From a virus (lineage: Duplodnaviria > Heunggongvirae > Uroviricota > Caudoviricetes), in the IMG/VR virus record IMGVR_UViG_2690316028_000010: a DNA stretch of 10,491 nucleotides; one strand, 5' to 3'. The notes beneath the pieces were generated by a model. That model made no database searches and was not told the origin of the DNA. It saw only the letters and a list, made by a program, of their open reading frames with translations. Numbering within the stretch: the stretch's first letter is position 1; each line of letters opens with the position of its first letter. Made by a program: the position numbers and the translations under genes. This document shows, piece after piece, positions 1 to 10,491 of the stretch.

Positions 1-780
1 TTATGGCCTTGTATTTCCTTTTCTTAACTTCTTTTCGCTCTTTTTTACAAGCTTAATTAACCACTCTGGCTCATCCGACAGTTCGGAGTAATAGCAGTAT
101 TCTGGTATTGCTTTCCAAAATGTTGTTATTGCATCAGCAAATTCAACAAACTGTTCTTCTGTTACATGCAGATCATCATGAGTAGGATTGATATGTCTGC
201 CGCATATACCAGTAGGATGAGGGTAATATTCTGGATGAGTTGATGATAGGAGGCGGTGAGAATTTCCATCACCATGTTTGTACACATTTACGACTAATGC
301 GCACGCTTTGAGCTTATCGCCATAATCAGTTTCATCTATCTTGAGACCGATCCACTCGAGCAGTTTCAACAGTTGATCAAAATTTAAATCCCAAACCATT
401 GGTGTAATGATCTCTTTATCACACCAATGAGACAATTCTCTGATCGTTTTTTCTCGTAACTTTTTATCGAACTGGTGATACATACCCGCAGTTACTGCCA
501 AAAGAACAGTTTCTTGCATTTCAATAAGTGACCAGACGTAGTTTACACCCTCCTCATATGCTTGCTCATAGGCTGCCATTGGGTCGTCAAAATCAGGATT
601 GAAATGCTCAGCGGTATACTCCAGAAACTGTTTCTCTCGCTCCTCCGCCTCTTGGGTCAGATCCCCAAACTGAGACAAAAGTCTCCGTCTTGCTTCCGAA
701 ACATAAAATTCGTGAGGTTCAAGAAAATAGGGCCGATCTACTTTAGCAAGCCAAAATGTCACGAAGTTATCTGATGACAT
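1..780 (-). CDS. hypothetical protein, 259 aa, AT-rich accessory gene; function unknown
   Basis: Complete ORF: ATG at 780-778 (plus 'cat'), stop TAA at 3-1. SD-like 'aagga' about 7 nt upstream on minus strand. Protein has mixed composition, not low-complexity. Local GC is clearly lower than the central block (by-eye count of the first 120 nt ~37%). No family recognised. Confidence 0.6.
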   Translation of the reverse strand: MSSDNFVTFWLAKVDRPYFLEPHEFYVSEARRRLLSQFGDLTQEAEEREKQFLEYTAEHFNPDFDDPMAAYEQAYEEGVNYVWSLIEMQETVLLAVTAGMYHQFDKKLREKTIRELSHWCDKEIITPMVWDLNFDQLLKLLEWIGLKIDETDYGDKLKACALVVNVYKHGDGNSHRLLSSTHPEYYPHPTGICGRHINPTHDDLHVTEEQFVEFADAITTFWKAIPEYCYYSELSDEPEWLIKLVKKSEKKLRKGNTRP

Positions 781-924
781 AACTTATCCTTGATAATTAT
801 TGTATGGATAGATTATCCAGAAATTTGCGAACTGAGTCGGTCATTTTTTTTTGTGTGCGCGTGATGTAATAAAGGTTCAGGAATATACTGTCAGTTTACT
901 GAAAAACTGGCAACAGAGGCGGTT
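781..924. promoter_or_regulatory. divergent intergenic region between the 259-aa gene (minus) and the 75-aa gene (plus); presumed to hold both promoters
   Basis: 144-bp AT-rich gap with a T9 run (843-851) between two outward-facing start codons. No confident -35/-10 pair could be assigned by eye. Confidence 0.3.
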
Positions 925-1152
925 ATGAGCGAGAGTTACGAGTTCTCAGCAGGTTGTTTTTTGAAGCTATCAATATCTTCAGGGTATTTCACTATCAAAA
1001 TTCAGGGAGATCTCCCCGCTCGTGCAGCTAGTGCCATCTTGGCAGATGATGTCGAGCAGGTTTTATCTCAACTAGACAAATGTTTTCAGCTGAGTAATAG
1101 GCAACGAGAAGGGATCGTTAAGTATCTTATGTCGAAGGGGATGCAGCCTTGA
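925..1152 (+). CDS. hypothetical small protein, 75 aa
   Basis: ATG at 925 preceded by SD 'agagg' (915-919). Stop TGA at 1150-1152 overlaps the next gene's ATG (TGATG), indicating translational coupling. Confidence 0.5.
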   Translation: MSESYEFSAGCFLKLSISSGYFTIKIQGDLPARAASAILADDVEQVLSQLDKCFQLSNRQREGIVKYLMSKGMQP

Positions 1153-1610
1153 TGACTTGGATCACCCAAACAGATAACTGGACAGGGATCGCGGCGTGGG
1201 CGGGTTTTGCTTTGTCCGTATTTCAATTACTAAAATCCAGAACATCGCTAAGGCTTTATCTCGGATGTGATCAGCACGAGGACAGGATATACGTTTCGAA
1301 CATAAGCGCACACGATGTAACGTTGAGTGCAGCCGGTGTGGTAACAGCCAGTGGACGCCTTAGAATGTTATCCGACGAATATTCGGACGAGAACATGATC
1401 ACACCGATGCTGCCAAAAAGATTGAAAGCACGAGACGAAATGGTCTTGAACGTGCCATTCATAAATAAGGCTCATCACAACAAAGTGCATCATCGTGGCG
1501 GGGTTTATATCAAAACATCTGACGGCAAGATGTTCAGTGATGTTTGTTGGATCAAACGCCAATGGTGGTGGTTACTGTCTGTAATACTACGAGACACAAA
1601 GCGATACTAA
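1152..1610 (+). CDS. hypothetical membrane-anchored protein, 152 aa from ATG 1152 (ORF track starts at TTG 1149)
   Basis: Start ATG 1152 overlaps upstream stop. One N-terminal hydrophobic stretch 'WTGIAAWAGFALSVFQLL' (~1182-1235) consistent with a single TM helix or signal anchor; remainder hydrophilic with a His-rich patch (HHNKVHH). Stop TAA 1608-1610. Confidence 0.5.
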   Translation: MTWITQTDNWTGIAAWAGFALSVFQLLKSRTSLRLYLGCDQHEDRIYVSNISAHDVTLSAAGVVTASGRLRMLSDEYSDENMITPMLPKRLKARDEMVLNVPFINKAHHNKVHHRGGVYIKTSDGKMFSDVCWIKRQWWWLLSVILRDTKRY

Positions 1611-1639
1611 GTTGATTGATAGTCCGAGGTGATGTTCTG

Positions 1640-1657
1640 CCCAGCGTAGTTGCTGGG
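1640..1657 (+). terminator. weak hairpin downstream of the 75/152-aa pair (6-bp stem cccagc/gctggg, 6-nt loop)
   Basis: Inverted repeat 1640-1645 / 1652-1657. No following U-tract, so at best a weak terminator or RNA structure. Confidence 0.2.
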
Positions 1658-1690
1658 TGATACACCTTCAATGATTCTTGTTAGTGTGTA

Positions 1691-1699
1691 GGGGGGGGG
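1691..1699 (+). repeat. homopolymeric G9 tract immediately upstream of the 72-aa ORF start
   Basis: Sequence 'gggggggggc' then ATG at 1701. Upstream in-frame stop TAG at 1689-1691 places the tract in the 5' UTR / ribosome-binding region, not inside coding sequence. Confidence 0.9.
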
Positions 1700-1700
1700 C

Positions 1701-1919
1701 ATGTTGGATTTTAAAGCTGAGTTTGTTGGCGGCAGCCATAGCGGCGAGGTTATATCACCGATGTCCGAGGTAGAACTTAATAAACTAGGGTATAGAGTCC
1801 ATTTACGTGGTGCCCCCTCTGGCGATGAAATGCCTGTACACGTTGTTGTACCTATTGAATGGTCAGCGGATGAAGCACACAGAGCCATAATGCAGCGCTG
1901 GGGTAAACGCAGACGGTAG
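1701..1919 (+). CDS. hypothetical small protein, 72 aa, basic C-terminus (WGKRRR)
   Basis: ATG 1701, stop TAG 1917-1919; G-rich SD-like sequence directly upstream. Composition more protein-like than the overlapping minus-strand ORF 1607-1930 (S/P/T-rich). No family recognised. Confidence 0.45.
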   Translation: MLDFKAEFVGGSHSGEVISPMSEVELNKLGYRVHLRGAPSGDEMPVHVVVPIEWSADEAHRAIMQRWGKRRR

Positions 1920-2301
1920 ATGTCGCGCATTTCTCTTAAACTGGCTGCTGTGTTTGGTGCTAATTATCCATGCAAAGTGGCCTAAGCTACGTGGAAGAAT
2001 GATCAGTTTCGCATTATTTGGTTCAAGGAGGGCTCCCCCACAGCCTCACTCTCTGAATGCAAAACAGCCCCACAATCCCACTGTTAAAAGTCCCAGCTTG
2101 AAAATTGCACGCTTATGGTTGCCCCTCCCTCAACTCTATAGCTCGCCCGCGCCCCCGTGTGCATGTGCGTGCCCGCGCGTCAGGGGTCGCTGAGAAACCC
2201 TAAGATTTTGCTCATCCGAGACAAGCATTACCTGCACCTGTAAAACGCGAAATTACCTCTCAAACACCACACATAAACCCACTTTGCATTGAGATCTGAC
2301 A
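1920..2301. other. ~380-bp GC-rich, apparently non-coding spacer with C-rich runs and an alternating purine-pyrimidine tract
   Basis: Only ORF here (1954-2193) is Pro/Ala/Arg-rich and low-complexity. Contains 'gcccgcgc' twice (2146-2153, 2171-2178) flanking 'gtgtgcatgtgcgtg' (2157-2171). Sits upstream of the capsid-like operon. Confidence 0.4.
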
Positions 2302-2649
2302 ATGACCTTACTGACACCTGAAAACGTGGCAGCGGCTAGGGCTGCCCGTAGCGCGAGGATTGAACACTGGAAAGCCAACGCCAGCCAGCTTAAGCAGGAC
2401 TTTGCTGACGAAGCGCACTGGCGGCGGCTCGCCTCACGCTTCGGCGTGCGTATGCCCTCGGCGTATGTTCCCGGCTCCGAGCTGCGATTGCTGCGCCGGG
2501 CGGCCAAACGCGCGGGCATCTCTGGTGCTGATATGCGCGATGCTTTTGGTGGGGGCGTTGCGCACCTGCACGAGCTTAATCCCCATTGGCCTGCCTTCGC
2601 GCTTATCGGCCTGATTCTTGAGATCGCGGCTGAAAAAGCTGCTGCCTGA
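2302..2649 (+). CDS. hypothetical protein, 115 aa, Ala/Arg-rich with hydrophobic C-terminus; first gene of the capsid-like operon
   Basis: ATG 2302, stop TGA 2647-2649. Codon third positions G/C-biased, consistent with real coding in this GC-rich block. Function not recognised; a small scaffold or packaging-associated protein are possibilities only. Confidence 0.5.
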   Translation: MTLLTPENVAAARAARSARIEHWKANASQLKQDFADEAHWRRLASRFGVRMPSAYVPGSELRLLRRAAKRAGISGADMRDAFGGGVAHLHELNPHWPAFALIGLILEIAAEKAAA

Positions 2650-2717
2650 TTCATCCCATTCTCTTTTCCCCTTTTCCATAAATCGCGCTGGCTAACGCTG
2701 GCGCGGGAGCTATTTCT

Positions 2718-3713
2718 ATGACTGACAATGTTTATACCCCTGACCAATTCCGCCCGCACTGGGGCGGTGTAGATGCTGACAACGACATTCACATTGAAGC
2801 GTATGACCGGGACGTTCAGACCCGCCTTGAGGCAAAGAGCGTGTTTCTCGCCGAGGGGCTGAGCACATACAAGCCGCTGAAAAACAGTAATCAGTATCGT
2901 GTAGACCGCCTGAGCGGAGATCTGGAGGTGAAGGGCAGAACCGCAGGGCAATCGCTGGAGCCTACCGCCGTTAAGTCGGACAAGCTGATTATCTCTGTGG
3001 ATACGCTGAGCTATATCCGCATCCCGATTGACTATCAAGACGACTGGACAGCGCCCACCTTTCGCGCAGAGCTGAGCCGCAACATGGGGACAGCCCATGC
3101 AAAGTTCTACGACGAAGCGCACACTATCCAGCTAATCAAAGCGACTGACTTTGTACCGCCGCCTACGTTGCAACCAACGTTTAACCCGCTGACGGATAAT
3201 GTTGTCTCGCTCGACCTGACAACGGGGAGCGAAGAGGATGCGGCTAACGAACTGGTTCACGCTATTAAAGCTGCTGTTAATCGATTCCTAACTGAAAAAG
3301 ATATTCCGGTGGCGGAGCTGTGCCTTCTCATCGACCCAGCTTGGTTCAGCATCCTGATGGAACATAAGAAGTTGATGAACGTCCGTTACAGCCGGGATAG
3401 TGGCAATGATTACGCATGGCGTCGCGTTGGCTATGTCGCTGGGGTGCGAGTTATTGAGCTGAACAGTTACCCGCAGGAAGCCATTACCGCGCATGAACTG
3501 GGCGCTGATTATGATGTGACCGCAGGGGAAGCGCTGACACGGGCGACGCTGTTCCGGCCTGCGTCTGTACTTGTGACAGTCGAAGCGCAGAGCGTTATCA
3601 ATCGCCAGTGGGATGATGAACGCGAAATGACAATGGTGATGGACTCATATCGCCTGTTCAATGTTGGGCTGCGCCGCCCTGACTGCGTTATAAATTTCCG
3701 ACAAGCTGCATAA
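2718..3713 (+). CDS. putative phage major capsid protein (HK97-fold / T7 gp10-like), 331 aa
   Basis: ATG 2718 with SD 'gggag' ~8 nt upstream; stop TAA 3711-3713. Several segments resemble T7-type capsid proteins from memory (e.g. 'IPVAELCLLIDPAWFSILM', C-terminal 'GLRRPDCVINFR'). Followed 17 nt later by an HNH gene, a common capsid-module neighbour. Similarity is by recall, not alignment. Confidence 0.5.
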   Translation: MTDNVYTPDQFRPHWGGVDADNDIHIEAYDRDVQTRLEAKSVFLAEGLSTYKPLKNSNQYRVDRLSGDLEVKGRTAGQSLEPTAVKSDKLIISVDTLSYIRIPIDYQDDWTAPTFRAELSRNMGTAHAKFYDEAHTIQLIKATDFVPPPTLQPTFNPLTDNVVSLDLTTGSEEDAANELVHAIKAAVNRFLTEKDIPVAELCLLIDPAWFSILMEHKKLMNVRYSRDSGNDYAWRRVGYVAGVRVIELNSYPQEAITAHELGADYDVTAGEALTRATLFRPASVLVTVEAQSVINRQWDDEREMTMVMDSYRLFNVGLRRPDCVINFRQAA

Positions 3714-3729
3714 CAAAAGGGGCCGAGCC

Positions 3730-4161
3730 ATGAATATTGATGCTTATGCCCCGGAGCTGTTGCGCTCTTTGTTTCGGTACGATGCGAAGACTGGCCGCCT
3801 GTTCCATGCAGTAGACCGGATCGGAGCCAACAAGCGGATTTACGCTAAAGCCGGGGAACTGGCCGACACGGTAACGGACAGCGCCGGATATAGGCGCGTA
3901 TCTGTCCGCATCAATGGCAAATCTCATGCGCTATACGCCCACCGTGTCGCCTTCATCATTGCTAATGACGGTATCCCTGCCGGGATGCAAATCGACCATA
4001 TCAACGCGGTACGCGATGACAACCGCCTTATCAATCTCCGCACGGTTACGCCACAAGAGAACCAGCACAATTACCGCAAAGCCAAGGGTTATAGCCACCA
4101 TGCCTGCTCTGGCAGATGGGAGGCTTACATTCGCGTTGGTGATCCACCGCGCGATAAATAA
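3730..4161 (+). CDS. HNH endonuclease (HNH_3-type, phage-associated), 143 aa
   Basis: ATG 3730 with SD 'aaagggg'; stop TAA 4159-4161. Clear HNH signature 'IDHINAVRDDNRLINLRTVTPQENQHN' and the N-terminal 'GYRRVSVRINGKSHALYAHRVAFI' pattern typical of this family. Confidence 0.85.
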   Translation: MNIDAYAPELLRSLFRYDAKTGRLFHAVDRIGANKRIYAKAGELADTVTDSAGYRRVSVRINGKSHALYAHRVAFIIANDGIPAGMQIDHINAVRDDNRLINLRTVTPQENQHNYRKAKGYSHHACSGRWEAYIRVGDPPRDK

Positions 4162-4200
4162 GCCGCAATCCGTGAGATAAATGGACACGGTGCGGCTTTT
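4161..4200. terminator. bidirectional intrinsic terminator candidate between convergent HNH and tape-measure genes
   Basis: Imperfect hairpin: 'agccgca' (4161-4167) pairs with 'tgcggct' (4191-4197), inner stem 'ccgtg'/'cacgg', followed by TTTT (4197-4200) on plus strand and an A/T-rich run on the other side. Lies in the 66-bp gap between the two converging stop codons. Confidence 0.5.
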
Positions 4201-4227
4201 CAGATACTGCAAAGGAATTACAGATTA

Positions 4228-6711
4228 TCAGTCGTAAGCAACCCGGCGCTTACGGGCAAGGATAGCTTCCAGTGCTCTTTCAATCTCAGGAATGGACAGC
4301 TTAAGCGCATTGGCCACATCCGGTGCTGGTGACTTGTTCTTGCCATCAATATAGATATTGTTAATGACGTTAATCCCGCCGCCTGCGCCTGCTGGTGAAT
4401 GAGAGTCCCGGCCTCTGGGTAAGGTAAGGTCGCCGCGCATATAGCGCTCTAATACGGGGGGTACTTTCGGCACATCCGGCACCATCATATCAGCCAGCCG
4501 CGAGGAGGCTTTCAGCGCCAGTGATGCAGACTGACCAATGCCAATCGCCGCCCCTTCTGCGATATTAGACCCGAAGCCCATAAATACACGGCTTGGCGAG
4601 TGAATCCCCAGCTTTTCCTTGAACCAGCCGCCGACACTGTCACCCATCTCAGTGACGGTATTCTTGAGAGACTCCCACTTGTTTTTGATACCGTTCACCA
4701 GTCCATCAATCAAGTGACCACCAAACTCAGTAAACTGGCCGGGAAGGTCGATGTTAAACCACTTCATGACCCCCGCAAACGCCTTGTAGAACAGCCCCAG
4801 CGGCGACCAGTTCAGGATTAGCTTACTGACACCAAGAACCCCGCCGTTAAAGGCTGTTTTCACTTCCTCCCACCGCTGCGAGAACCATCGGCTTATCGCG
4901 CCCCAGTTGCGGTAAATCAGGTACGCGCCCCCGGCGATGATGGTTATCGCAATGCCTATGGGGTTCATTAACAGCGCCCTGCCAAACCAGAGGAAAGCCT
5001 TTGCCACCACCATTACGCCTCTGAACAGTCCACCCGCCAGCGCTTTACCCAGCATTCCGGCTCCCTTCGCCACGGTACTGAATCCGGTAGCCAGCCAGCG
5101 CAGCTTTCCGCCGTCGCTCAGGGCGGTTTTGAGCAACAGCCAGTTAGTGCGCAGCAGTACGGCGTTTTTCCACAACCCGGCGAACGGTGATACCAGCAGA
5201 TTCAGGCCGAGTTTCAGCCCGACAGTGGCGATTTTCAGCCCCAGCAGTACGCCCACGGTTTTTGCCACACCCTGAACAATGCCGGGATGTTGCGCTATCC
5301 ATTGCCCGGTGGAATGAATCAGCGGAATCAGTTGCTGCGTCATTGACACGAACGAGGGAGACAGTTGACTGCCAAGGGTAATGGACAGTTCGCGGGTGCT
5401 GACCATCAGTGCTTTGGTCGCCTCCAGCGGCGATTTCAGTCGCTCCGTGTAGGAGGAGGCCAGCAGGTCTTTATCCGCCGCCTTAAGTGCGCCAGCCCTG
5501 ATTTCGCGGTATTTGTCCATGTTGGCGAGCATCGGACGGACAAACGCCATGACCTGCATATCGGCGAACATCTCACCCAGACCGAAATTCTTTGCCAGTT
5601 CCTGTAACGCAAGGTCGCGGGAGTTATCGTCCTTGATTTTCATTGCTTTCTTGAAGCCTGCCAGTGCTTCCGGGCTTTTGGCCTCCAGATACCTGCCCAT
5701 GACGCTTATCATGCCCTCAATGGGCGAGACGCCAGCAGATTTATAAGCCATGAGTGACCCCTGAAGGTCAATCCCGATATCGGCAAACTGTTTCTGCGTG
5801 TCGCGGGCAAAAATCTTGGTGAGGAAGTTACGGAAGTTGTTACCAGCCTCGTCAGATGACCCGGCACCAATTCGGGCAATCTGTAAACTCGCTCCGATTT
5901 CCGCCATCGCTTCTTTACCTTCGGCAATACCGCGCATCATCGGGGCAAGAGATGGCATCCATTTCACCTGGTCAGGTATTTCAAAAGACCCTTGGTCGCC
6001 TGCAAAGGCCATGATGTTCTGTACTTTGGCAAACTCTTTAGCGCTGCCATCCATCGAGTTTTTCCAGACGGCGGCAACCTTCGCCCATTCCGTCCCTGTG
6101 GTGCGTGTGGCAGTAGCGGCGCGGGCTATATTGGGCATGAAGCTGCCAATTTCGGACACACTGTCGATATTGTCACTGATAAGCGAGCCTACGGCGTCCT
6201 GTAAGTCGCTCTGGTACTGGTTGTACTTGAGCGACCATCCCCGGATTTGCTGCCCCAGACTGGCGCGGGTTTTATCGTCATATTTCGCCGTGATCGACAT
6301 ATCAATCATCTTGTCGTCGAACGTAGCCGACTGCTGAATCGCCGGGGAAACGAGGCTGTAAGCGGCTTTGGCCTGCGCCCACGTCTCAATTCCCTGTCCA
6401 TAAAGCGCCATCCGGTTAGCTCTCAGGGCATCGGTTGTGGCAGACGCTGCCGACAGGCGGGACTGCTGGCGGTTTAGTTGCTCCAGCGTTCTGCCTACCC
6501 GTTGCAGGTCATTGTTCAGGCGTGAGGCCACGCCTGAACCTACCTGACCGTAACGCTGCATGGCGCGTGACAGGCTGCTTTGTTGCTCGGTCAGGCGGCG
6601 TGACGTGTCGCCGAGAGAATCAAGCGCCCGCCGTGTGCCGCTGACGGCGGAACGGAAGCTGCTCCCGACAATACCGCCAATCATCACACCAACAGAAAAA
6701 TTATTGCTCAT
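4228..6711 (-). CDS. phage tail tape-measure protein, 827 aa
   Basis: ATG 6711-6709 with SD 'ggagtg'; stop at 4228. Helical N-terminal region, long central Gly/Ala/Leu-rich hydrophobic segment, and C-terminal 'GIHSPSRVF'-type motif that I recall from tape-measure proteins. Size is typical. Confidence 0.75.
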   Translation of the reverse strand: MSNNFSVGVMIGGIVGSSFRSAVSGTRRALDSLGDTSRRLTEQQSSLSRAMQRYGQVGSGVASRLNNDLQRVGRTLEQLNRQQSRLSAASATTDALRANRMALYGQGIETWAQAKAAYSLVSPAIQQSATFDDKMIDMSITAKYDDKTRASLGQQIRGWSLKYNQYQSDLQDAVGSLISDNIDSVSEIGSFMPNIARAATATRTTGTEWAKVAAVWKNSMDGSAKEFAKVQNIMAFAGDQGSFEIPDQVKWMPSLAPMMRGIAEGKEAMAEIGASLQIARIGAGSSDEAGNNFRNFLTKIFARDTQKQFADIGIDLQGSLMAYKSAGVSPIEGMISVMGRYLEAKSPEALAGFKKAMKIKDDNSRDLALQELAKNFGLGEMFADMQVMAFVRPMLANMDKYREIRAGALKAADKDLLASSYTERLKSPLEATKALMVSTRELSITLGSQLSPSFVSMTQQLIPLIHSTGQWIAQHPGIVQGVAKTVGVLLGLKIATVGLKLGLNLLVSPFAGLWKNAVLLRTNWLLLKTALSDGGKLRWLATGFSTVAKGAGMLGKALAGGLFRGVMVVAKAFLWFGRALLMNPIGIAITIIAGGAYLIYRNWGAISRWFSQRWEEVKTAFNGGVLGVSKLILNWSPLGLFYKAFAGVMKWFNIDLPGQFTEFGGHLIDGLVNGIKNKWESLKNTVTEMGDSVGGWFKEKLGIHSPSRVFMGFGSNIAEGAAIGIGQSASLALKASSRLADMMVPDVPKVPPVLERYMRGDLTLPRGRDSHSPAGAGGGINVINNIYIDGKNKSPAPDVANALKLSIPEIERALEAILARKRRVAYD

Positions 6712-6742
6712 GGTTCACTCCGGTTGAGTGGTTCGGTGGGCG

Positions 6743-7336
6743 TCATTCAGTCAGGGACAGGCCGCTGATTCCGGTAATCCCGGCAATTTCTTCGCTGACG
6801 GCTGCCAGTTCACTTTCAAGCCCGGTGCGTTCGCTGACCAGTGCCGCCACGGTCTTACGGCGCTCTGCCAGTGAGGGAAGTTTGTCATTACCCCACGTCA
6901 CGCTCTTATCCTTCTTAAGCGCTTCGGTCAGTCGGGTGGCGACCACATCCGGGAAGAAAAAGCAGAGCTTGCGCATTACCGCCATCCCGGTATCAGCCGG
7001 GGGGACGTTTCCTCCCAGCCCCACCAGACGGAACAGACCGGAAATATCGCCGTTCTCATTTTCCAGATTGCCCCAGCGTTCGGCGTTCCCTTCACCGCCG
7101 GAACCGTTGCAAAGAGCACGCTTGAATGACTGATATTCTTCCTGCCCGAATCGCTCAATATATTCAGGAATAAAGGAACAGTAATCATTAAGTGATAACG
7201 GCATATCCTGTAATGCGGTTATTTCGCCATTAATATCACCAATGCGACGAGAGAGCTTTTCTTTCTGCTCATTCAGGGAGGTAAGGTTATTTTTAACGGC
7301 GTTCAGTGCTTCAATGAGGGAAATAACAGGTTTCAT
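6743..7336 (-). CDS. hypothetical protein, 197 aa, coiled-coil-like N- and C-termini; possible scaffold-like or tail-assembly accessory protein
   Basis: ATG 7336-7334 lies 1 nt after the upstream gene's TAA (taaAATG) with SD 'ggag' inside the upstream gene's 3' end; stop TGA 6745-6743. Heptad-like ends; no slippery heptamer seen at the 3' end. Confidence 0.5.
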   Translation of the reverse strand: MKPVISLIEALNAVKNNLTSLNEQKEKLSRRIGDINGEITALQDMPLSLNDYCSFIPEYIERFGQEEYQSFKRALCNGSGGEGNAERWGNLENENGDISGLFRLVGLGGNVPPADTGMAVMRKLCFFFPDVVATRLTEALKKDKSVTWGNDKLPSLAERRKTVAALVSERTGLESELAAVSEEIAGITGISGLSLTE

Positions 7337-7337
7337 T

Positions 7338-7952
7338 TTAATAACTCCAGATAAAAGGTGTAGTGAGGGTGAGCGCTTCGGAATAGGAGACGTTGCAGGC
7401 TTCGCTTACATCCTTTATTAAAAGGTGCTGCGCTGCCCTCTGGCTGTCGGCTATGCCGTCGAGCTCTGAGAAATAAACGTGTGATTCATTGTGACCAAAA
7501 CAAACCGGGTAAGCGCTTTCCATAAACTCCACCTGCTCAAGCCCCTTTACGGCTGGCGGCTGTGCGCCGAGAAAACCAATATGGCGAAGATACCAGGCAC
7601 CAGTTCCGGCCGGGTTACGCGCTTCTCCCGGCCTGTAGAAAGCGGCAGACACTTTTTTATATAGACCTGACTGAACCATATCCAGCAACCTGTTATCAGG
7701 CTTAACCAGCGCGAAAAGTCTGCCGTTTTTACTTATCAGTCCGGTGGTTTCACCATAGGCGGGACTGTTACTGGCCGGATGCCCCAGGCACAGCGGCGCA
7801 CCATAACCCGCGCGATGATAGCCGTTATAGGCTGCTGCCATGTTGTCGATATCCTCGTCGGAAAAGCTGATTTCCTGCCCCGCCATCGCGGTATGTGTTC
7901 CCGCCCGGAATATCTCAATAGTTTTCCAGTTACCAATATTGATATCTGTCAT
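7338..7952 (-). CDS. putative GPO-family prohead protease / capsid scaffolding protein, N-terminal protease-like domain, 204 aa
   Basis: ATG 7952-7950; stop TAA 7340-7338. Recalled resemblance to P2 gpO N-terminus: 'FRAGTHTAMAGQEISFSDEDIDNMAAAY' vs gpO 'FRIGVEGDTCDGRVISAQDIQEMAETF', and 'LCLGH' vs gpO 'INLEH'. Shorter than P2 gpO (~284 aa). Confidence 0.55.
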   Translation of the reverse strand: MTDINIGNWKTIEIFRAGTHTAMAGQEISFSDEDIDNMAAAYNGYHRAGYGAPLCLGHPASNSPAYGETTGLISKNGRLFALVKPDNRLLDMVQSGLYKKVSAAFYRPGEARNPAGTGAWYLRHIGFLGAQPPAVKGLEQVEFMESAYPVCFGHNESHVYFSELDGIADSQRAAQHLLIKDVSEACNVSYSEALTLTTPFIWSY

Positions 7953-7953
7953 T

Positions 7954-8481
7954 TTATATTTGTCCCTGTTTCATATCGCGGCACTCTTTGTTTTTCTTAC
8001 GCTCGGCGGCAATAATCTGATAAATCCACTGAATAGAATTGCCATATTTCCTGGCTAATTCCCGATGAGTCATCCCTTGTTTGTAATCGGAAAATATCCT
8101 GGCATTTCTGTCGAAAGAGTTTCTGGCTGCGCCATTAGGTATATAGAAATTGTTACCTTTAAAGACCCTTCTAAGGTGTTCTGTAATTTCCGGGGAAATG
8201 ATTTCGGCCTGAGCCGAAAAGCAATGTATTGTAAGCAAAGCCTGCGCTATCACACCTGTAAGCTCATGCAGAAAAGATGTTGCTTTAGGGGCGTCTTCAC
8301 ATTCTATTGGCATGTAATTCTGGCAACCACCAAGATTATCAGATATATGCAAAACAATTTTATTTGCTGCACTACTTGCCTGAAGTTGTGAATAGCCCGC
8401 ATCAGTCAGAAAATCTTCAATCGCATCCCCCATTTCCCCCAGAGTGTCAGATGTTGCGTACAATCCCTCTCTTGTAATCAT
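7954..8481 (-). CDS. Mor/C-family transcriptional activator (Mu middle/late activator family), ~175 aa from ATG 8481
   Basis: C-terminal region matches the Mor pattern: 'NFYIPNGAARNSF' (cf. Mor 'QVYIPRG'), 'RIFSDYKQGMTHRELARKYGNSIQWIYQIIAAERKK' (HTH). ATG 8481-8479 has SD 'gagg' ~7 nt upstream; the ORF-track start at 8487 is a GTG too close to the SD. Stop TAA 7956-7954, 1 nt before the next gene's start. Confidence 0.75.
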   Translation of the reverse strand: MITREGLYATSDTLGEMGDAIEDFLTDAGYSQLQASSAANKIVLHISDNLGGCQNYMPIECEDAPKATSFLHELTGVIAQALLTIHCFSAQAEIISPEITEHLRRVFKGNNFYIPNGAARNSFDRNARIFSDYKQGMTHRELARKYGNSIQWIYQIIAAERKKNKECRDMKQGQI

Positions 8482-8509
8482 AATCACACCTCGGTAATGA
8501 TAAAGATGT

Positions 8510-8614
8510 GCGCTAAAAAGGCTTTATAAAGCTTTATGAGGCGTCTTTCTGGTGACAAATCAGCACATACACCATTAACGCTTTAAAATGGCTTACAGGC
8601 TTTTTTAGCGCGGG
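8510..8614. promoter_or_regulatory. regulatory region upstream of the Mor-like gene: 12-bp palindrome, tandem 'gctttat' and flanking 10-bp inverted repeats
   Basis: 'ataaagctttat' perfect palindrome at 8526-8537; 'gctttat' at 8521-8527 and 8531-8537. 'gcgctaaaaa' (8510-8519) is the inverse of 'tttttagcgc' (8602-8611). Promoter hexamers not confidently assigned. Confidence 0.35.
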
Positions 8615-8681
8615 TTACTAATGTGGATTAAGAATATGGTTTTGGGGCGGGGATGTTTTTTAATGTACTTTAGATATGAAG

Positions 8682-8703
8682 AAGCCCCTCAGAGGAGGGG
8701 CTT
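8682..8703. terminator. GC-rich hairpin (9-bp stem, 4-nt loop) immediately downstream of the 96-aa gene; candidate intrinsic terminator
   Basis: 'aagcccctc' (8682-8690) pairs perfectly with 'gaggggctt' (8695-8703), loop 'agag'. Sits 17 nt past the TAA at 8722-8720; the flanking run on the minus-strand transcript is only moderately U-rich. Confidence 0.45.
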
Positions 8704-8719
8704 GCGGGATTACGCCAGA

Positions 8720-9010
8720 TTATTGAGGTCGTCTGTCTTTCCTCAATCCATCAAGTAGCGCCATGGCATCAGTAACCAGTATGCCAGCAGCATCCGTAAC
8801 CATCGAAACATCAGAGGATGCACATGATTTATCCATACCTAATGTTGACGCAAAATCAAGTAGCTTACGAACTGCGTCAAGTCGATAGGTGGCAGAGTCG
8901 TAAATTAACTCCTGATTAGCATCAGTCTTTAAAAACATAATATCATCAGAGGCACCTTGCGAAAATGACGGCATCGCACGGAAAGTATTTTGAGTTTCAG
9001 CCTGTTTCAT
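8720..9010 (-). CDS. hypothetical protein, 96 aa
   Basis: ATG 9010-9008 overlaps the upstream gene's TGA (ATGA, coupling); SD 'ggagg' ~8 nt upstream; stop TAA 8722-8720. Confidence 0.5.
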   Translation of the reverse strand: MKQAETQNTFRAMPSFSQGASDDIMFLKTDANQELIYDSATYRLDAVRKLLDFASTLGMDKSCASSDVSMVTDAAGILVTDAMALLDGLRKDRRPQ

Positions 9011-9744
9011 TGTGCAGTCCTCCGGCTAATAGCGAATTTATTATAAACTTCATAACTGGCAGCATTCAGTCCGGGGTTGTATTTATCAGCCAGAGCACAG
9101 GCAATCATATGTTCAATAAATTTTGTTATTGCGTTAAGTTCAGTTTCGTTTGAATAACGCAATGCCACTTTGAGTAACTCGCGGCAATATTGTTTTTTAT
9201 TCCCTTCGATTTGGCCTGATTTTTTTATTCCTGCCTTTTTATCTGATTCATCCTCAACAGGCAAAGATGGGATATCCTCTTTATTGGTTAGCGTTCTTTC
9301 GCAAATAATATCTTCACCAGATTGAATTACGCGCTGCAACTCTCTGGCGCTCATACGAAGAATATCATCAAGCGTGTGGTCGTTATATGCCCCACCACTG
9401 GCAAGGAGATCCAGTGTCACTTCATCCAGCCGGGCAAGCAGGTTTAACTTCGTTTTGCCGATACTTGTTTTGGCAATTGCGGCTCGGGGGGTATTGGTTA
9501 CGCCAAATATCAGAGCAACCCGCATAGCATTATGGGCTTCACGTTTATTAATTCCCCCCACTGAAAGCGCCTTTGCAAATTCCTCATTTGTTTTTGTTGC
9601 TTCCTTAAGTGCCAGCATCTCTTTACCACGATGCACTAAAGTTTCAGTCGGGGTTGGCAAAAGGAGTACAGCATCTAAAATTTTTTCCCGAAGTACATCA
9701 ACTTGGCTTGCGATGCATGAACGGTTAGACTTGTTGATACCCAT
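9007..9744 (-). CDS. hypothetical protein, ~245 aa from ATG 9744 (ORF track begins at TTG 9765); candidate early/regulatory protein
   Basis: ATG 9744-9742 preceded by SD 'gagga' ~9 nt upstream; stop TGA 9009-9007. Acidic/Lys-rich linker mid-protein; no P-loop or other catalytic motif recognised. Divergent from the RHH gene. Confidence 0.5.
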   Translation of the reverse strand: MGINKSNRSCIASQVDVLREKILDAVLLLPTPTETLVHRGKEMLALKEATKTNEEFAKALSVGGINKREAHNAMRVALIFGVTNTPRAAIAKTSIGKTKLNLLARLDEVTLDLLASGGAYNDHTLDDILRMSARELQRVIQSGEDIICERTLTNKEDIPSLPVEDESDKKAGIKKSGQIEGNKKQYCRELLKVALRYSNETELNAITKFIEHMIACALADKYNPGLNAASYEVYNKFAISRRTAQ

Positions 9745-9774
9745 GATTGTTATCCTCAATAACAATGGTGGTCA

Positions 9775-9809
9775 GGCAGGATGTGATACTGAACCTATCA
9801 TGTCCTGCC
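9775..9809. promoter_or_regulatory. imperfect dyad symmetry (13-bp arms, 11/13 matching, 9-bp spacer) upstream of the 245-aa gene
   Basis: 'ggcaggatgtgat' (9775-9787) vs 'atcatgtcctgcc' (9797-9809). Could be an operator or a 5'-UTR hairpin of the minus-strand transcript. Confidence 0.3.
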
Positions 9810-9840
9810 GCTTGCGGTTTTACATCTACTTAATGTAATG

Positions 9841-9877
9841 TACGTACCATTGATTTCAATCTAAACAATGGTACGTA
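9841..9877. promoter_or_regulatory. perfect 12-bp inverted repeat with 13-bp spacer (candidate operator) overlapping the RHH gene start codon
   Basis: 'tacgtaccattg' (9841-9852) and its exact reverse complement 'caatggtacgta' (9866-9877). The right arm covers the ATG at 9868-9870. Located in the divergent promoter region. Confidence 0.55.
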
Positions 9878-10071
9878 TCATGTCAAGAGTAAAAGATAAC
9901 ACGCCTAAAAATTCCGCAGGGCGTTCCCCGACCTTCCAAATACGTATTACACCTGAACTTAGGGAACAGCTTGATAAAGAAGCTCTTAAAGATGGTGTAA
10001 GTTTGGCCAATTGGCTCAAAGGCATTGCACGAGATGAACTACGCAGGAGAGGTATTTCTCCAAAAGGGTAG
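9868..10071 (+). CDS. ribbon-helix-helix (Arc/MetJ-like) DNA-binding protein, 67 aa; putative repressor
   Basis: 'FQIRITPELREQLDKEALKDGVSLANWLKGIARDEL' fits the RHH beta-strand plus two helices (cf. Arc 'FNLRWPREVLDLVRKVAEENGRSVNSEIYQRVMESF'). ATG 9868 (alternative ATG 9880), both with weak SD; stop TAG 10069-10071. Confidence 0.6.
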   Translation: MVRIMSRVKDNTPKNSAGRSPTFQIRITPELREQLDKEALKDGVSLANWLKGIARDELRRRGISPKG

Positions 10072-10086
10072 GGCTAATCAGGTACA

Positions 10087-10476
10087 AAAAGCGAAAACGT
10101 TTTCGCTTTTATGGCTAAGAGAGCGGATGCACTCATTAAAGCGGACAGCGCTGTCCGCCTCCAATCAGCAAAAAAACAAGATGGTTCCTCCAAAACGCTC
10201 AACGTTGAGCGTTACGTTATTCCGACAAAAGCGCAGGCGCTTGCGCTTTTGAAAGGGATCAACACGGCTTTCAAACCGGACAACGTTGACCGCTTTAAGG
10301 AATCACTGTCGGCTGAGCAAAAACGGCAAGCGCTTGCCGTTTTAGATTCGCGGGGCGGTAAACGTTTACCGTTCTGTGTCAATTATGTTCAAAAGCGAAA
10401 GCGCTTTCGCATTTTCTCACCTAAAGCGGCAAACCTCCTCTGTCTTAGCTGGAAAAACGACATCGCTGTCGTTTTT
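10087..10476. repeat. array of eight hairpin-capable palindromes of one family (A-tract, CG-rich core, T-tract)
   Basis: P1 10087-10110 aaaagcgaaaac|gttttcgctttt (perfect, 24 bp); P2 10141-10158 gcggacagc|gctgtccgc (perfect); P3 10194-10213 aacgctcaac|gttgagcgtt (perfect); P4 10227-10250 (1 mismatch); P5 10320-10343 aaaacggcaagc|gcttgccgtttt (perfect); P6 10356-10371 cggtaaac|gtttaccg (perfect); P7 10391-10414 (1 mismatch); P8 10453-10476 aaaaacgaca-tcgc-tgtcgttttt. Symmetry kept while sequence differs between copies. Confidence 0.85.
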
Positions 10477-10491
10477 AATCCGAGGTTCTAA
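10111..10491 (+). CDS. ORF of 126 aa overlapping the palindrome array; coding status doubtful
   Basis: ATG 10111 directly after palindrome P1, stop TAA 10489-10491 at window end. Repeated peptide motifs (KAQALALL, KRQALAVL, KRKRFRIF) are direct consequences of the DNA palindromes, so the frame may be open by chance. Confidence 0.3.
   Translation: MAKRADALIKADSAVRLQSAKKQDGSSKTLNVERYVIPTKAQALALLKGINTAFKPDNVDRFKESLSAEQKRQALAVLDSRGGKRLPFCVNYVQKRKRFRIFSPKAANLLCLSWKNDIAVVFNPRF

What the first reader, a model, noticed from the sequence alone, without database searches (positions are those of the whole stretch)
10087..10476. Dense array of eight structurally conserved palindromes next to the RHH gene
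Eight palindromes of 16-24 bp (five perfect) in ~390 bp is far beyond chance. Copies differ in sequence but each keeps near-perfect self-complementarity, which implies selection for hairpin or cruciform structure or for dimeric protein sites. The overlapping 126-aa frame is probably not the main function. Candidate roles: centromere-like or replication-origin site, packaging signal, terminator cluster or structured RNA, possibly bound by the adjacent RHH protein.
Basis: seen in the sequence. Interest (0 to 1): 0.7.

Follow-up and report, generated by a model that had tools for sequence, protein, structure and literature searches.

The report
Palindrome array copied from helper phages
The palindrome cluster is real and non-coding: it collects variants of a palindrome found once in each of many Mu-like (BcepMu/B3-type) transposable phages, sits in a 7.8-kb transposase-less derivative of such a phage, and most likely serves as binding sites for a ParB-like phage protein.

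Summary
Nine palindromes of one design (A-run, variable stem, RCGY centre, T-run) lie at 10087-10476, against about 0.1 expected by shuffling. The window cuts the array: the closest relative has 14 units.

The 126-aa frame is not conserved. It carries a stop codon in E. coli AW1.7 and is broken in other relatives.

The array belongs to a 7.75-8.03-kb element with BcepMu-like TG...CA ends and 6-bp target duplications at five sites. The element has no transposase, so it looks like a satellite-like mini transposable phage.

Most BcepMu/B3-type phages examined carry one near-perfect 24-28-bp palindrome of this design in or beside their DUF3102 gene, which lies upstream of the transposase gene. Window units match particular phage alleles at 24/24, 23/24 and 23/24 positions, in one case sharing the same asymmetry.

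The element's own DUF3102 homologue (9007-9744, minus strand) models as a ParB/KorB/SopB-type DNA-binding domain and as a homodimer.

Best reading: a sopC-like but multi-allelic array of sites for DUF3102 dimers, used in dealings between the element and its helper phage. The RHH protein is an unlikely binder. Binding and function are inferred, not shown.

The parts
4140..10491 (.). Left end and body of a roughly 7.8-kb transposase-less BcepMu-like element, cut by the window end. It is inserted at the 3' end of an HNH gene belonging to another prophage.
   Evidence: The terminus TGATCCACCGCGCGATAAA starts at 4140. Complete copies measure 7,754-8,034 bp and have 6-bp target duplications at five sites. 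The ends match those of the AW1.7 helper prophage and of BcepMu.
4140..4199 (+). Terminal region with TG at the tip and two GNGNGATAWWT repeats, which are presumed transposase-binding sites.
   Evidence: Compared with BcepMu and the AW1.7 helper prophage ends. Binding is inferred.
9007..9744 (-). DUF3102-type protein of 245 aa, counted from the ATG at 9744. It has a ParB-fold DNA-binding core and is the candidate binder of the palindromes.
   Evidence: It is 34% identical over 128 aa to the DUF3102 protein of phage PhiKM (E 1e-12). The AlphaFold model's best fold matches are Spo0J, ParB-parS, KorB, SopB and VirB (Z 8.3-5.0). The homodimer model scores 0.49 against 0.00 for the best control.
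9841..9877 (.). 15-nt inverted repeat between the divergent genes, probably the operator of the RHH protein or of the divergent promoters.
   Evidence: repeat I12. A different inverted repeat sits at the same place in L001, which has a different RHH allele.
9880..10071 (+). RHH (YlcI/YnfO, Arc/HicB-like) gene of 63 aa.
10087..10110 (.). Unit 1, a perfect 24-bp palindrome with an ACGT centre.
   Evidence: Identical in AW1.7, L010 and CX21. It matches helper allele L040 at 22/24.
10139..10160 (.). Unit 2, GCGC centre, 18-bp perfect core.
   Evidence: It resembles the phiE255 allele, and the G002/L004 copy matches that allele at 22/24.
10194..10213 (.). Unit 3, a perfect 20-bp palindrome.
   Evidence: It has the same stem as the PhiKM allele with a different centre.
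10226..10251 (.). Unit 4, with one G.T mismatch.
   Evidence: It matches the palindrome inside the KP12 DUF3102 gene at 23/24.
10273..10296 (.). Unit 5, with a conserved mid-stem A.A mismatch.
   Evidence: The same asymmetry is found in seven loci and in helper allele L039.
10320..10343 (.). Unit 6, a perfect 24-bp palindrome.
   Evidence: Identical at 24/24 to the palindrome in an enterobacterial helper-type DUF3102 gene (L038, protein P0110).
10356..10371 (.). Unit 7, a perfect 16-bp palindrome that lacks the A/T-run flanks.
10391..10414 (.). Unit 8, asymmetric in its outer arm.
   Evidence: It matches helper allele L043 (P0163) at 23/24 and shares the same outer asymmetry.
10453..10476 (.). 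Unit 9, with the non-palindromic centre TCGC.
   Evidence: AW1.7 has ACGT here, a two-base difference at 10463 and 10466. Its stem is that of helper allele L040.
10111..10491 (+). 126-aa open frame over units 2-9, probably not a gene.
   Evidence: AW1.7 has a stop in this frame. Of the nine substitutions inside the frame between the window and AW1.7, six change the residue (one of them to a stop) and three are silent. No family matches.

Best explanation
The array is non-coding DNA. It is a cluster of two-fold symmetric protein-binding sites, each a copy of a palindrome that BcepMu/B3-type transposable phages carry once, in or beside their DUF3102 gene just upstream of the transposase gene. 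The likely binders are dimers of DUF3102 proteins, which have a ParB/KorB/SopB-type helix-turn-helix domain. These could be the element's own homologue (9007-9744), the helper phage's protein, or both. Different phage lineages carry different stem alleles, and the array holds about 9-14 alleles side by side. It therefore resembles a centromere array such as sopC, but a multi-allelic one. It sits in a 7.8-kb element that has the phage's two ends but no transposase, so the element must depend on a helper phage's transposase. My inference is that the array lets the element capture, titrate or sense the DUF3102 protein of whichever helper lineage is present. What is shown: the array's anatomy, the non-conserved frame, the element's ends and target duplications, the single palindromes in phages, the allele matches, and the fold and dimer models. 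What is inferred: that DUF3102 binds these sites, and what that binding does.
For: 1) The single-copy phage palindrome was found in PhiKM, KP12, BcepMu, phiE255, B3, Ps59, Mae-JY22, the AW1.7 prophage and six further enterobacterial prophage genes. In one Pasteurellaceae-like genome it lies just upstream of the gene.
2) Window units match specific helper alleles at 24/24, 23/24 and 23/24, the last sharing the same asymmetry. The AW1.7 helper allele matches a unit in the AW1.7 array at 23/24. Helper alleles match array units better than column-shuffled palindromes do: mean best match 22.3 against 20.75 +/- 0.32 of 24, and 4 matches of 23 or more against 0.99 expected, P = 0.0055.
3) Between elements only the 24-28-bp units are conserved, not the spacers.
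4) The window protein shares its DNA-binding core with the phage DUF3102 protein. Its model's best matches are ParB-family DNA-binding domains, several solved on palindromic DNA. The homodimer model scores 0.49 against 0.00 for the best control; 20 of 30 proteins solved as pairs and 1 of 23 solved as single chains reached the mark; the three runs agree in at least 53% of contacts and partner pLDDT is at least 65.
5) Covariation extends to position 2 from the centre (97% complementary within a unit against 48% between units). A hairpin loop would not require this.
6) Array-less variants of the element carry, in the same slot, a 318-321-aa protein homologous to the C-terminal half of the helper's DUF3102 protein (E 3e-8). 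Both alternative modules therefore relate to that protein.
7) The element's ends match helper ends and both show 6-bp target duplications. A helper-type transposase is present elsewhere in 3 of 7 genomes that carry the element.
Against: No binding data exist. The fold matches are moderate (Z about 8, Foldseek E 0.08-1, model pLDDT 66). No N-terminal ParB CTPase domain and no ParA partner were seen. Some DUF3102 genes have no palindrome (Ps60, Bise, Ralstonia YO107_2, and a second I. alba prophage), so the site is not obligatory. If a single protein binds every unit, the symmetric variation of the inner stems is left unexplained. If each allele needs its own cognate protein, allele specificity is assumed and untested. 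Perfect base-pairing also fits a nucleic-acid structure. Four of seven genomes carrying the element hold no helper-type transposase.
Confidence: 0.5

Rival explanations
1. The units work as nucleic-acid structures, either cruciforms or hairpins in single-stranded DNA during replicative transposition, or RNA hairpins acting as bidirectional attenuators, terminators or processing and stability elements. What matters is pairing, not a sequence-specific protein.
For: Complementarity within a unit is 91-100% at variable positions. The phage copies are mostly perfect over 24-28 bp inside a coding region. The A-run / GC stem / T-run layout looks like a bidirectional terminator. The region folds far better than shuffles (z = -6.5). 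Contigs from RNA libraries cover the region (weak evidence: DNA carry-over is possible and the strand is unknown).
Against: Covariation at position 2 from the centre would leave only a 2-nt loop. The T-runs are 3-4 bases long, and the terminator scan flags only two units in the 14-unit AW1.7 array (three overlapping calls). One RNA-library contig runs through nine units. A mid-stem A.A mismatch is conserved in seven loci and in a helper allele. After collapsing shared ancestry, mismatches show no wobble bias for either strand (A.C 9, G.T 5, other 8). Each allele is conserved in sequence across genera, not only in its pairing.
Confidence: 0.2
2. The array has no present function. The units are scars of repeated recombination or gene conversion with helper DUF3102 genes and are slowly decaying.
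For: The units are copies of helper alleles. Only 9 of 46 distinct array 24-mers are perfect palindromes. Among the helper alleles, 11 of 14 have a perfect palindrome of at least 24 bp by my count. CX21 shows extra mismatches. Unit number ranges from 0 to 14 between elements.
Against: Only the 24-28-bp palindromes are retained, with no flanking gene sequence. Unit order and sequence are kept across Citrobacter, Escherichia, Intestinirhabdus and metagenome copies while the spacers diverge beyond alignment.
Confidence: 0.12
3. The array is a centromere or operator array for the adjacent RHH protein.
For: The RHH gene lies directly upstream. RHH proteins such as ParG, ParR and omega are known to bind repeat arrays (established knowledge).
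Against: Three diverged RHH alleles accompany the same palindrome types. One allele occurs both with a 9-unit array (G002) and with none (KCJ3K291). A separate inverted repeat at 9841-9877 changes together with the RHH allele. The same palindromes occur in phages next to DUF3102 genes, with no RHH gene beside them in the flanks examined.
Confidence: 0.05
4. The 126-aa frame encodes a real protein and the palindromes are a by-product of its sequence.
For: An ATG-to-TAA frame spans units 2-9, and the window ends exactly at its stop codon. NCBI's pipeline annotates a 79-aa version in AW1.7.
Against: AW1.7 and CX21 have the frame cut to 79 aa. It is absent or broken in L001, L002 and L004. Pfam, PHROGs and NCBIfam give no match. 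Substitutions inside the frame against AW1.7 are mostly non-synonymous.
Confidence: 0.03

Closest known systems
sopC of plasmid F with SopB, and parS with ParB, O_B with KorB, NBS with Noc
   Same: These are palindromic sites bound by dimers of a ParB-family helix-turn-helix domain. The sites often lie in or next to the gene of the binding protein. sopC is an array of 12 such sites beside sopB. The window protein's model matches these DNA-binding domains best.
   Different: sopC units are identical 43-bp tandem repeats, whereas these units are 9-14 different alleles at irregular spacing of 28-79 bp. No ParA/SopA partner was found and no ParB N-terminal CTPase domain was detected. The setting is a transposable-phage derivative, not a plasmid. 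Binding is untested.
Phage satellites (P4-like, PICI, cfPICI, PLE)
   Same: This is a small element carrying a subset of helper-like genes (tape measure, protease-like, Mor activator, N-terminal part of the small terminase). It lacks its own replication or transposition enzyme, and a related full phage is resident in some of the same genomes.
   Different: It has no integrase and no att site. Instead it has the helper's transposon ends and 6-bp target duplications, which points to mobilisation by the helper's transposase. I found no description of such a satellite in the papers searched.
17-bp dyad-symmetric repeats of Cluster O mycobacteriophages (PMC4351075)
   Same: These are many copies of a palindromic site in a phage genome. 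The authors predict that a dimeric DNA-binding protein binds them, for a role other than promoter control.
   Different: Those repeats share one consensus and are scattered through the genome. They are not a compact array of differing alleles.
Mini-Mu derivatives and the cis sites of phage Mu (ends, internal activation sequence/enhancer, strong gyrase site)
   Same: A DNA segment that carries both phage ends can be transposed by a helper's transposase. Mu also uses internal cis sites to promote assembly of the transposition complex (established knowledge of Mu).
   Different: Mini-Mu elements are laboratory constructs, whereas this element is natural and widespread in Enterobacterales. The Mu enhancer and gyrase site are not palindrome arrays. 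Any role of the DUF3102 palindrome in transposition is speculation.

Membership tests
ParB/parS-type centromere array (sopC-like) | Dyad-symmetric DNA sites clustered next to the gene of the binding protein | tested here: met
   Nine units lie 320 bp and more from the start of the DUF3102-type gene. In phages the site lies inside or just upstream of that gene.
ParB/parS-type centromere array (sopC-like) | A binding protein with the ParB-family helix-turn-helix DNA-binding domain | tested here: inconclusive
   The best fold matches are Spo0J, ParB, KorB, SopB and VirB (Z 8.3-5.0, rmsd 2.8-4.7 A over 96-112 residues). Foldseek gives probability up to 1.0 but E 0.08-1. Model pLDDT is 66, about 85 in the core. 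Sequence search found no match in the PDB.
ParB/parS-type centromere array (sopC-like) | A partner partition NTPase (ParA/SopA) and a ParB N-terminal CTPase domain | tested here: not met
   No such family appears among the element's reading frames in the window or among the annotated genes of complete copies. The protein aligns to the ParB DNA-binding domain only.
ParB/parS-type centromere array (sopC-like) | Repeated units of one sequence | tested here: not met
   Units differ at positions 2 and 4-9 (0.8-1.7 bits), and there were 53 distinct 24-mers across eight arrays.
ParB/parS-type centromere array (sopC-like) | Demonstrated binding of the protein to the sites | not testable with these tools
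   This needs EMSA or ChIP.
Intrinsic (bidirectional) terminators | A GC-rich hairpin followed by a run of at least 5 T within 8 bases | tested here: not met
   The scan of the AW1.7 region flags only two units of its 14-unit array (three overlapping calls). The tails are 3-4 T. An RNA-library contig spans all nine window units.
BcepMu-like transposable phage, non-autonomous derivative | TG...CA termini with repeated transposase-binding motifs like those of the phage | tested here: met
   Both ends align with the two ends of the AW1.7 helper prophage and resemble the BcepMu ends.
BcepMu-like transposable phage, non-autonomous derivative | A short target-site duplication at unrelated insertion sites | tested here: met
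   6-bp duplications occur at five sites (AGTGAA, ATTGCA, CCACGG, GTAAAA, TGCACC). The helper prophage also has a 6-bp duplication, GTAGCT. Further insertions lie beside sbmC and inside PTS and ybhJ genes.
BcepMu-like transposable phage, non-autonomous derivative | Its own DDE transposase and MuB-like ATPase | tested here: not met
   None is annotated or detected in the 7.8 kb. The Citrobacter plasmid record that carries a copy gave no transposase match.
Known phage satellite families (P4-like, PICI, cfPICI, PLE) | An integrase plus the family's marker genes | tested here: not met
   No integrase, primase-replicase or alpA-type gene was found in the window part of the element or in annotated complete copies.
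Integron attC array / REP-BIME elements | attC sites of 57 bp or more with an integrase, or REP units with a RAYT transposase and genome-wide spread | tested here: not met
   The units are 24-28 bp with 4-55 bp between them. There is no integrase. The region is found in only 10 of 5,426 E. coli genomes, always within this element.

The most novel reading that the evidence does not exclude
The array is a library of lineage-specific recognition sites. Each unit is the cognate site of the ParB-like DUF3102 protein of a different helper-phage lineage. In the phages the site lies inside the very codons that encode the helix just before the protein's recognition motif, so site and protein must change together. 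By carrying 9-14 alleles, a transposase-less satellite of transposable phages could detect, titrate or recruit the DUF3102 protein of almost any helper it meets. That would be a DNA-based, broad-range helper sensor or decoy, in what would be the first described natural satellite of Mu-like phages.
Probability: 0.25. Interest if true: 0.85.

Novelty: new variant of a known kind. Interest (0 to 1): 0.74.

Why it matters
If this holds, it brings three things to light that I could not find described.
- A conserved cis-acting palindrome sits inside the DUF3102 gene of BcepMu/B3-type transposable phages of Pseudomonas, Burkholderia, Enterobacterales and others. That gives an uncharacterised but widespread phage protein a testable DNA target.
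- A natural, non-autonomous mini transposable phage has helper-type ends. This would extend the satellite concept to phages that replicate by transposition.
- A centromere-like array is built from different alleles rather than identical repeats. This suggests a way for a parasite of phages to cope with helper diversity.

All three can be tested directly in E. coli AW1.7, which holds both the element and a matching prophage.

Tried and rejected
- **Known RNA families.** The Rfam scan of the whole element in AW1.7 found nothing near any gathering score.
- **Phage and plasmid DNA searches.** The 'phages' collection gave no DNA match to the region. An exact-pattern scan of viral contigs for the last unit found nothing.
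- **ORF126 as a gene.** Pfam, PHROGs and NCBIfam gave no match.
- **Sequence search of the DUF3102 profile against the PDB.** Only noise came back.
- **Strand-specific wobble bias.** The raw count looked skewed (A.C 34 against G.T 9). It vanished once inherited mismatches and flank positions were collapsed (9 against 5), so it is rejected as evidence for an RNA on either strand.
- **Unit versus spacer conservation.** My global alignments of the window array to L001 and L010 were poorly matched in length and are not used.
- **Packaging (pac) site.** Rejected because the phage copy lies about 7 kb inside the genome, which does not fit headful packaging starting from an end.
- **Central gyrase-site analogue.** The phage copy is not central in the genome.
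- **Literature.** Searches for DUF3102, BcepMu gp10, satellites of transposable phages and ParB-like palindromes in such phages found no description. The library is incomplete, so this does not prove novelty.
- **RNA libraries.** Contigs cover 9005-10482, but they cannot show strand, level or ends, and DNA carry-over is possible.
- **Helper co-residence.** It is not universal: four E. coli chromosomes with the element gave no transposase match.

Full report
**1. The observation**

Window 10087-10476 holds nine even palindromes of one design: an A-run of 3-4 bases, a variable stem of 5-6 bases, R, a central RCGY, Y, the complementary stem, and a T-run. Four are perfect over 16-24 bp and a fifth has an 18-bp perfect core. 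A thousand shuffles of the region gave a mean of 0.14 and a maximum of 2 palindromes, against 9 observed. The remaining 10.1 kb of the window has three weak, unrelated ones. Otherwise the description is accurate.

**2. The frame is not a gene**

The 126-aa frame (10111-10491) matches nothing in Pfam, PHROGs or NCBIfam. The closest relative is E. coli AW1.7, 93% identical here. One substitution there turns a codon into TAG and cuts the frame to 79 aa, while the palindromes after it are unchanged. Of the nine substitutions inside the frame between the two, six change the residue, one of them to the stop. In a Citrobacter plasmid (L001), Intestinirhabdus alba (L002) and a virus record (L004) the palindromes sit in broken or different frames. 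In the virus record the only stretches that match the window are the palindromes themselves; the spacers are unrelated.

**3. The array goes on past the window**

AW1.7 has 14 units in about 620 bp, and the window ends after unit 9. Other copies have 12, 11, 9, 8, 8, 5 and 3 units, and two variants have none. In relatives the array is followed by about 700 conserved non-coding bases and then a short Mu gp27-family gene.

**4. What carries it**

The array lies in a 7.75-8.03-kb unit with these genes:
- a tape measure protein (71% identical in protein to Escherichia phage PhiKM, a Bcepmuvirus);
- a protein related to the head protease;
- a Mor-family activator;
- two small genes;
- a DUF3102-type gene;
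- and, running the other way, an RHH gene, the array, and the gp27-like gene.

The unit starts TGATCC and ends TCTAATCA. It is flanked by 6-bp direct duplications at five unrelated sites. In E. coli it lies inside ynbC, beside sbmC, and inside a PTS gene and ybhJ.

Its two ends align with the two ends of a 34.3-kb BcepMu-like prophage elsewhere in the AW1.7 chromosome, which also has a 6-bp duplication. They also resemble the ends of phage BcepMu, including two GNGNGATAWWT repeats per end. No transposase is present in the unit. In the window the left end is at 4140, inserted at the 3' end of an HNH gene of an unrelated prophage.

I read this as a non-autonomous, satellite-like derivative of a transposable phage. 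That reading is inference: mobilisation has not been shown. A helper-type transposase (89-94% identical to PhiKM's) is present elsewhere in 3 of 7 genomes that carry the element. In a sample of 401 Enterobacterales genomes, 6 had a DUF3102 match. The element region itself is in 10 of 5,426 complete E. coli genomes.

**5. Where the palindromes come from**

Scanning PhiKM found exactly one palindrome of this design. It is a perfect 28-mer inside the DUF3102 gene, two genes upstream of the transposase gene. The same holds elsewhere:
- KP12 and BcepMu (gp10);
- phiE255, B3 (ORF13), Ps59 and Mae-JY22;
- the AW1.7 prophage;
- five further enterobacterial prophage genes;
- imperfect versions in phiSHP3 and one I. 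alba prophage.

In one Pasteurellaceae-like genome the palindrome lies just upstream of the gene instead. Ps60, Bise, Ralstonia YO107_2 and a second I. alba prophage have none.

Inside the gene it is read as x-K-x-x-[A/T]-L-x-x-L-G, directly before a conserved GK[S/T]KL motif. The stems differ between phages, yet most copies are perfect or near-perfect palindromes, so the DNA symmetry is selected on top of the coding sequence.

**6. Array units are copies of phage alleles**

| Window unit | Helper allele | Match |
|---|---|---|
| 10320-10343 | L038 (protein P0110) | 24/24 |
| 10227-10250 | KP12 | 23/24 |
| 10391-10414 | L043 (protein P0163) | 23/24, same outer-arm asymmetry |

The AW1.7 prophage's allele matches a unit of the AW1.7 array at 23/24, and the I. 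alba prophage's stem type is in the I. alba array. A mid-stem A.A mismatch in one unit type is kept in seven loci and is also present in a common helper allele.

Against column-shuffled palindromes of the same composition, helper alleles match array units better. The mean best match is 22.3 against 20.75 +/- 0.32 of 24. Four helpers match at 23 or more against 0.99 expected (P = 0.0055). Homology stops at the edges of the 24-28-bp unit; no flanking gene sequence is carried along.

**7. Symmetry statistics**

Over 69 distinct units, positions 2 and 4-9 from the centre carry 0.8-1.7 bits of variation. They are 91-100% complementary within a unit against 35-62% between units. The covariation includes position 2 (97% against 48%), which leaves only the central CG. 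A hairpin loop would not need that, whereas a two-fold symmetric duplex site would. After collapsing inherited mismatches, there is no excess of G.T on either strand (A.C 9, G.T 5, other 8).

**8. The candidate binder**

The element's 245-aa protein (9007-9744) is 34% identical over 128 residues to PhiKM's DUF3102 protein (E 1e-12). Its gene has lost the palindrome.

An AlphaFold model built from 19 homologues has a confident core (pLDDT about 85 over residues 30-143; 66 overall). With an aligner independent of Foldseek, the best matches are:
- Spo0J (Z 8.3);
- ParB DNA-binding domain on parS (Z 8.0, 112 residues, 2.8 A);
- KorB (Z 7.0 and 6.9);
- SopB on DNA (Z 6.1);
- VirB and P1 ParB.

Foldseek's list is led by Spo0J-parS, and most of its high-probability rows are Spo0J, Noc and ParB chains. 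The scores are moderate, so I treat the fold as likely, not proven.

A two-copy model gives a symmetric interface through residues 180-221. The score is 0.49 against 0.00 for the best of three controls. The mark was reached by 20 of 30 proteins solved as pairs and by 1 of 23 solved as single chains. The three runs agree in at least 53% of contacts and partner pLDDT is at least 65. This supports a dimer but does not show one.

ParB-family domains bind palindromes that often lie in or near their own genes, and sopC is an array of such sites beside sopB (established knowledge).

**9. Not the RHH protein**

The window, L001 and LR536431 have diverged RHH alleles with the same palindrome types. G002 and KCJ3K291 share one RHH allele, yet G002 has nine units and KCJ3K291 has none. 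A separate 15-nt inverted repeat at 9841-9877 sits between the divergent genes and is replaced by a different one where the RHH allele differs.

**10. A hint from array-less variants**

In KCJ3K291 and Erwinia tracheiphila the array slot holds a 318-321-aa gene. The KCJ3K291 product is homologous to the C-terminal half of the helper's DUF3102 protein (27% identity, E 3e-8). I infer that the Erwinia tracheiphila gene is equivalent from its position, its length and an N-terminus resembling the helper protein's. The element thus carries the DNA-binding part of that protein as one gene. Next to it, it carries either copies of the protein's presumed site or a relative of the protein's other half. 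This points to the helper's DUF3102 system as the element's target, which is inference.

**11. Mechanism**

My best reading, at confidence 0.5, is that the units are duplex sites for DUF3102 dimers. Assembled as a multi-allelic array, they would recruit, titrate or sense the DUF3102 protein of a helper phage, the element's own paralogue, or both. What the single site does in the phage is unknown. A roadblock or autoregulatory site ahead of the transposase genes, or a nucleation site that aids assembly of the transposition complex, are possibilities I could not test.

The rivals are, in order:
- a structure-only role as cruciform, single-stranded or RNA hairpin (0.2);
- decaying recombination scars (0.12);
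- RHH sites (0.05);
- a real protein from the frame (0.03).

**12. Novelty**

Searches of the held literature for DUF3102, BcepMu gp10, satellites of transposable phages and ParB-like palindromes in these phages found no description. The nearest published analogue I found is the set of 17-bp dyad repeats in Cluster O mycobacteriophages, which the authors predict bind a dimeric protein for an unknown purpose. I rate this a new variant of a known kind: a centromere-like site array, but multi-allelic and carried in a new type of phage parasite.

Noticed in passing
window 4140-10491; complete copies at L013:15001-22809, L001:26-7807, and L012, L010, L009: The array's carrier is itself notable. It is a 7.75-8.03-kb element with BcepMu-type ends and 6-bp target duplications, and it has no transposase. 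It encodes helper-like tape measure, protease-like, Mor and truncated small-terminase proteins, so it is a candidate natural satellite of transposable phages.
   Followed up: yes
L014:28403-28430, L015 about 27932, L016 about 7049, L017/L018/L024 about 662, L021 about 605, L032 about 3820: BcepMu/B3-type transposable phages from several bacterial orders each carry one perfect 26-28-bp palindrome inside the DUF3102 gene upstream of the transposase gene. It encodes the helix just before a conserved GK[S/T]KL motif. I found no published description.
   Followed up: yes
outside the window: L013:21600-22320, L001:6640-7335, L004:1690-2400: Downstream of the array, relatives share about 700 conserved bases. 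These contain a roughly 35-nt long-range inverted repeat, a terminator-like hairpin, and a 27-codon hydrophobic ORF (MKGFLQIAVIALKAIVAFIELILACLP) that recalls TisB-type type I toxins.
   Followed up: no
outside the window: L013:22325-22669: The element's 114-aa 'Gp27 family' protein matches only the first 50 or so positions of the Mu Gp27 small-terminase family, and only the N-terminal 67 residues of helper small terminases (41% identity). This looks like a truncated terminase DNA-binding domain that could interfere with packaging or redirect it.
   Followed up: partly
L051:4850-5806 (E. coli KCJ3K291); L011, reverse strand, next to its RHH gene (Erwinia tracheiphila): Array-less variants of the element carry, in the same slot, a 318-321-aa gene. 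The KCJ3K291 product is homologous to the C-terminal half of the helper DUF3102 protein (E 3e-8).
   Followed up: partly
window 8518-8539: An AT-rich palindrome (AAGGCTTTATAAAGCTTT) lies between the Mor gene and the upstream small gene. It is conserved at the same place in L007-L012 and may be a promoter or operator element.
   Followed up: no
window 1-4139: The left part of the window is a different prophage, with a PHROG 19541 protein, a major head protein (2718-3713) and an HNH endonuclease (3730-4161). The element is inserted into the last codons of the HNH gene.
   Followed up: partly
L007-L009 (for example L009:4570-4673) and L050:4622-4657: Some element variants have two or three AT-rich palindromes (TGATAAATATTTATCA) between the RHH gene and a shortened array. 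These are a second, unrelated set of dyad sites.
   Followed up: no
window 9005 (runs X17, X18): In RNA-library contigs from a related strain, the sequence left of 9005 is different. The small gene upstream of the DUF3102-type gene therefore appears to be replaced in that strain.
   Followed up: no
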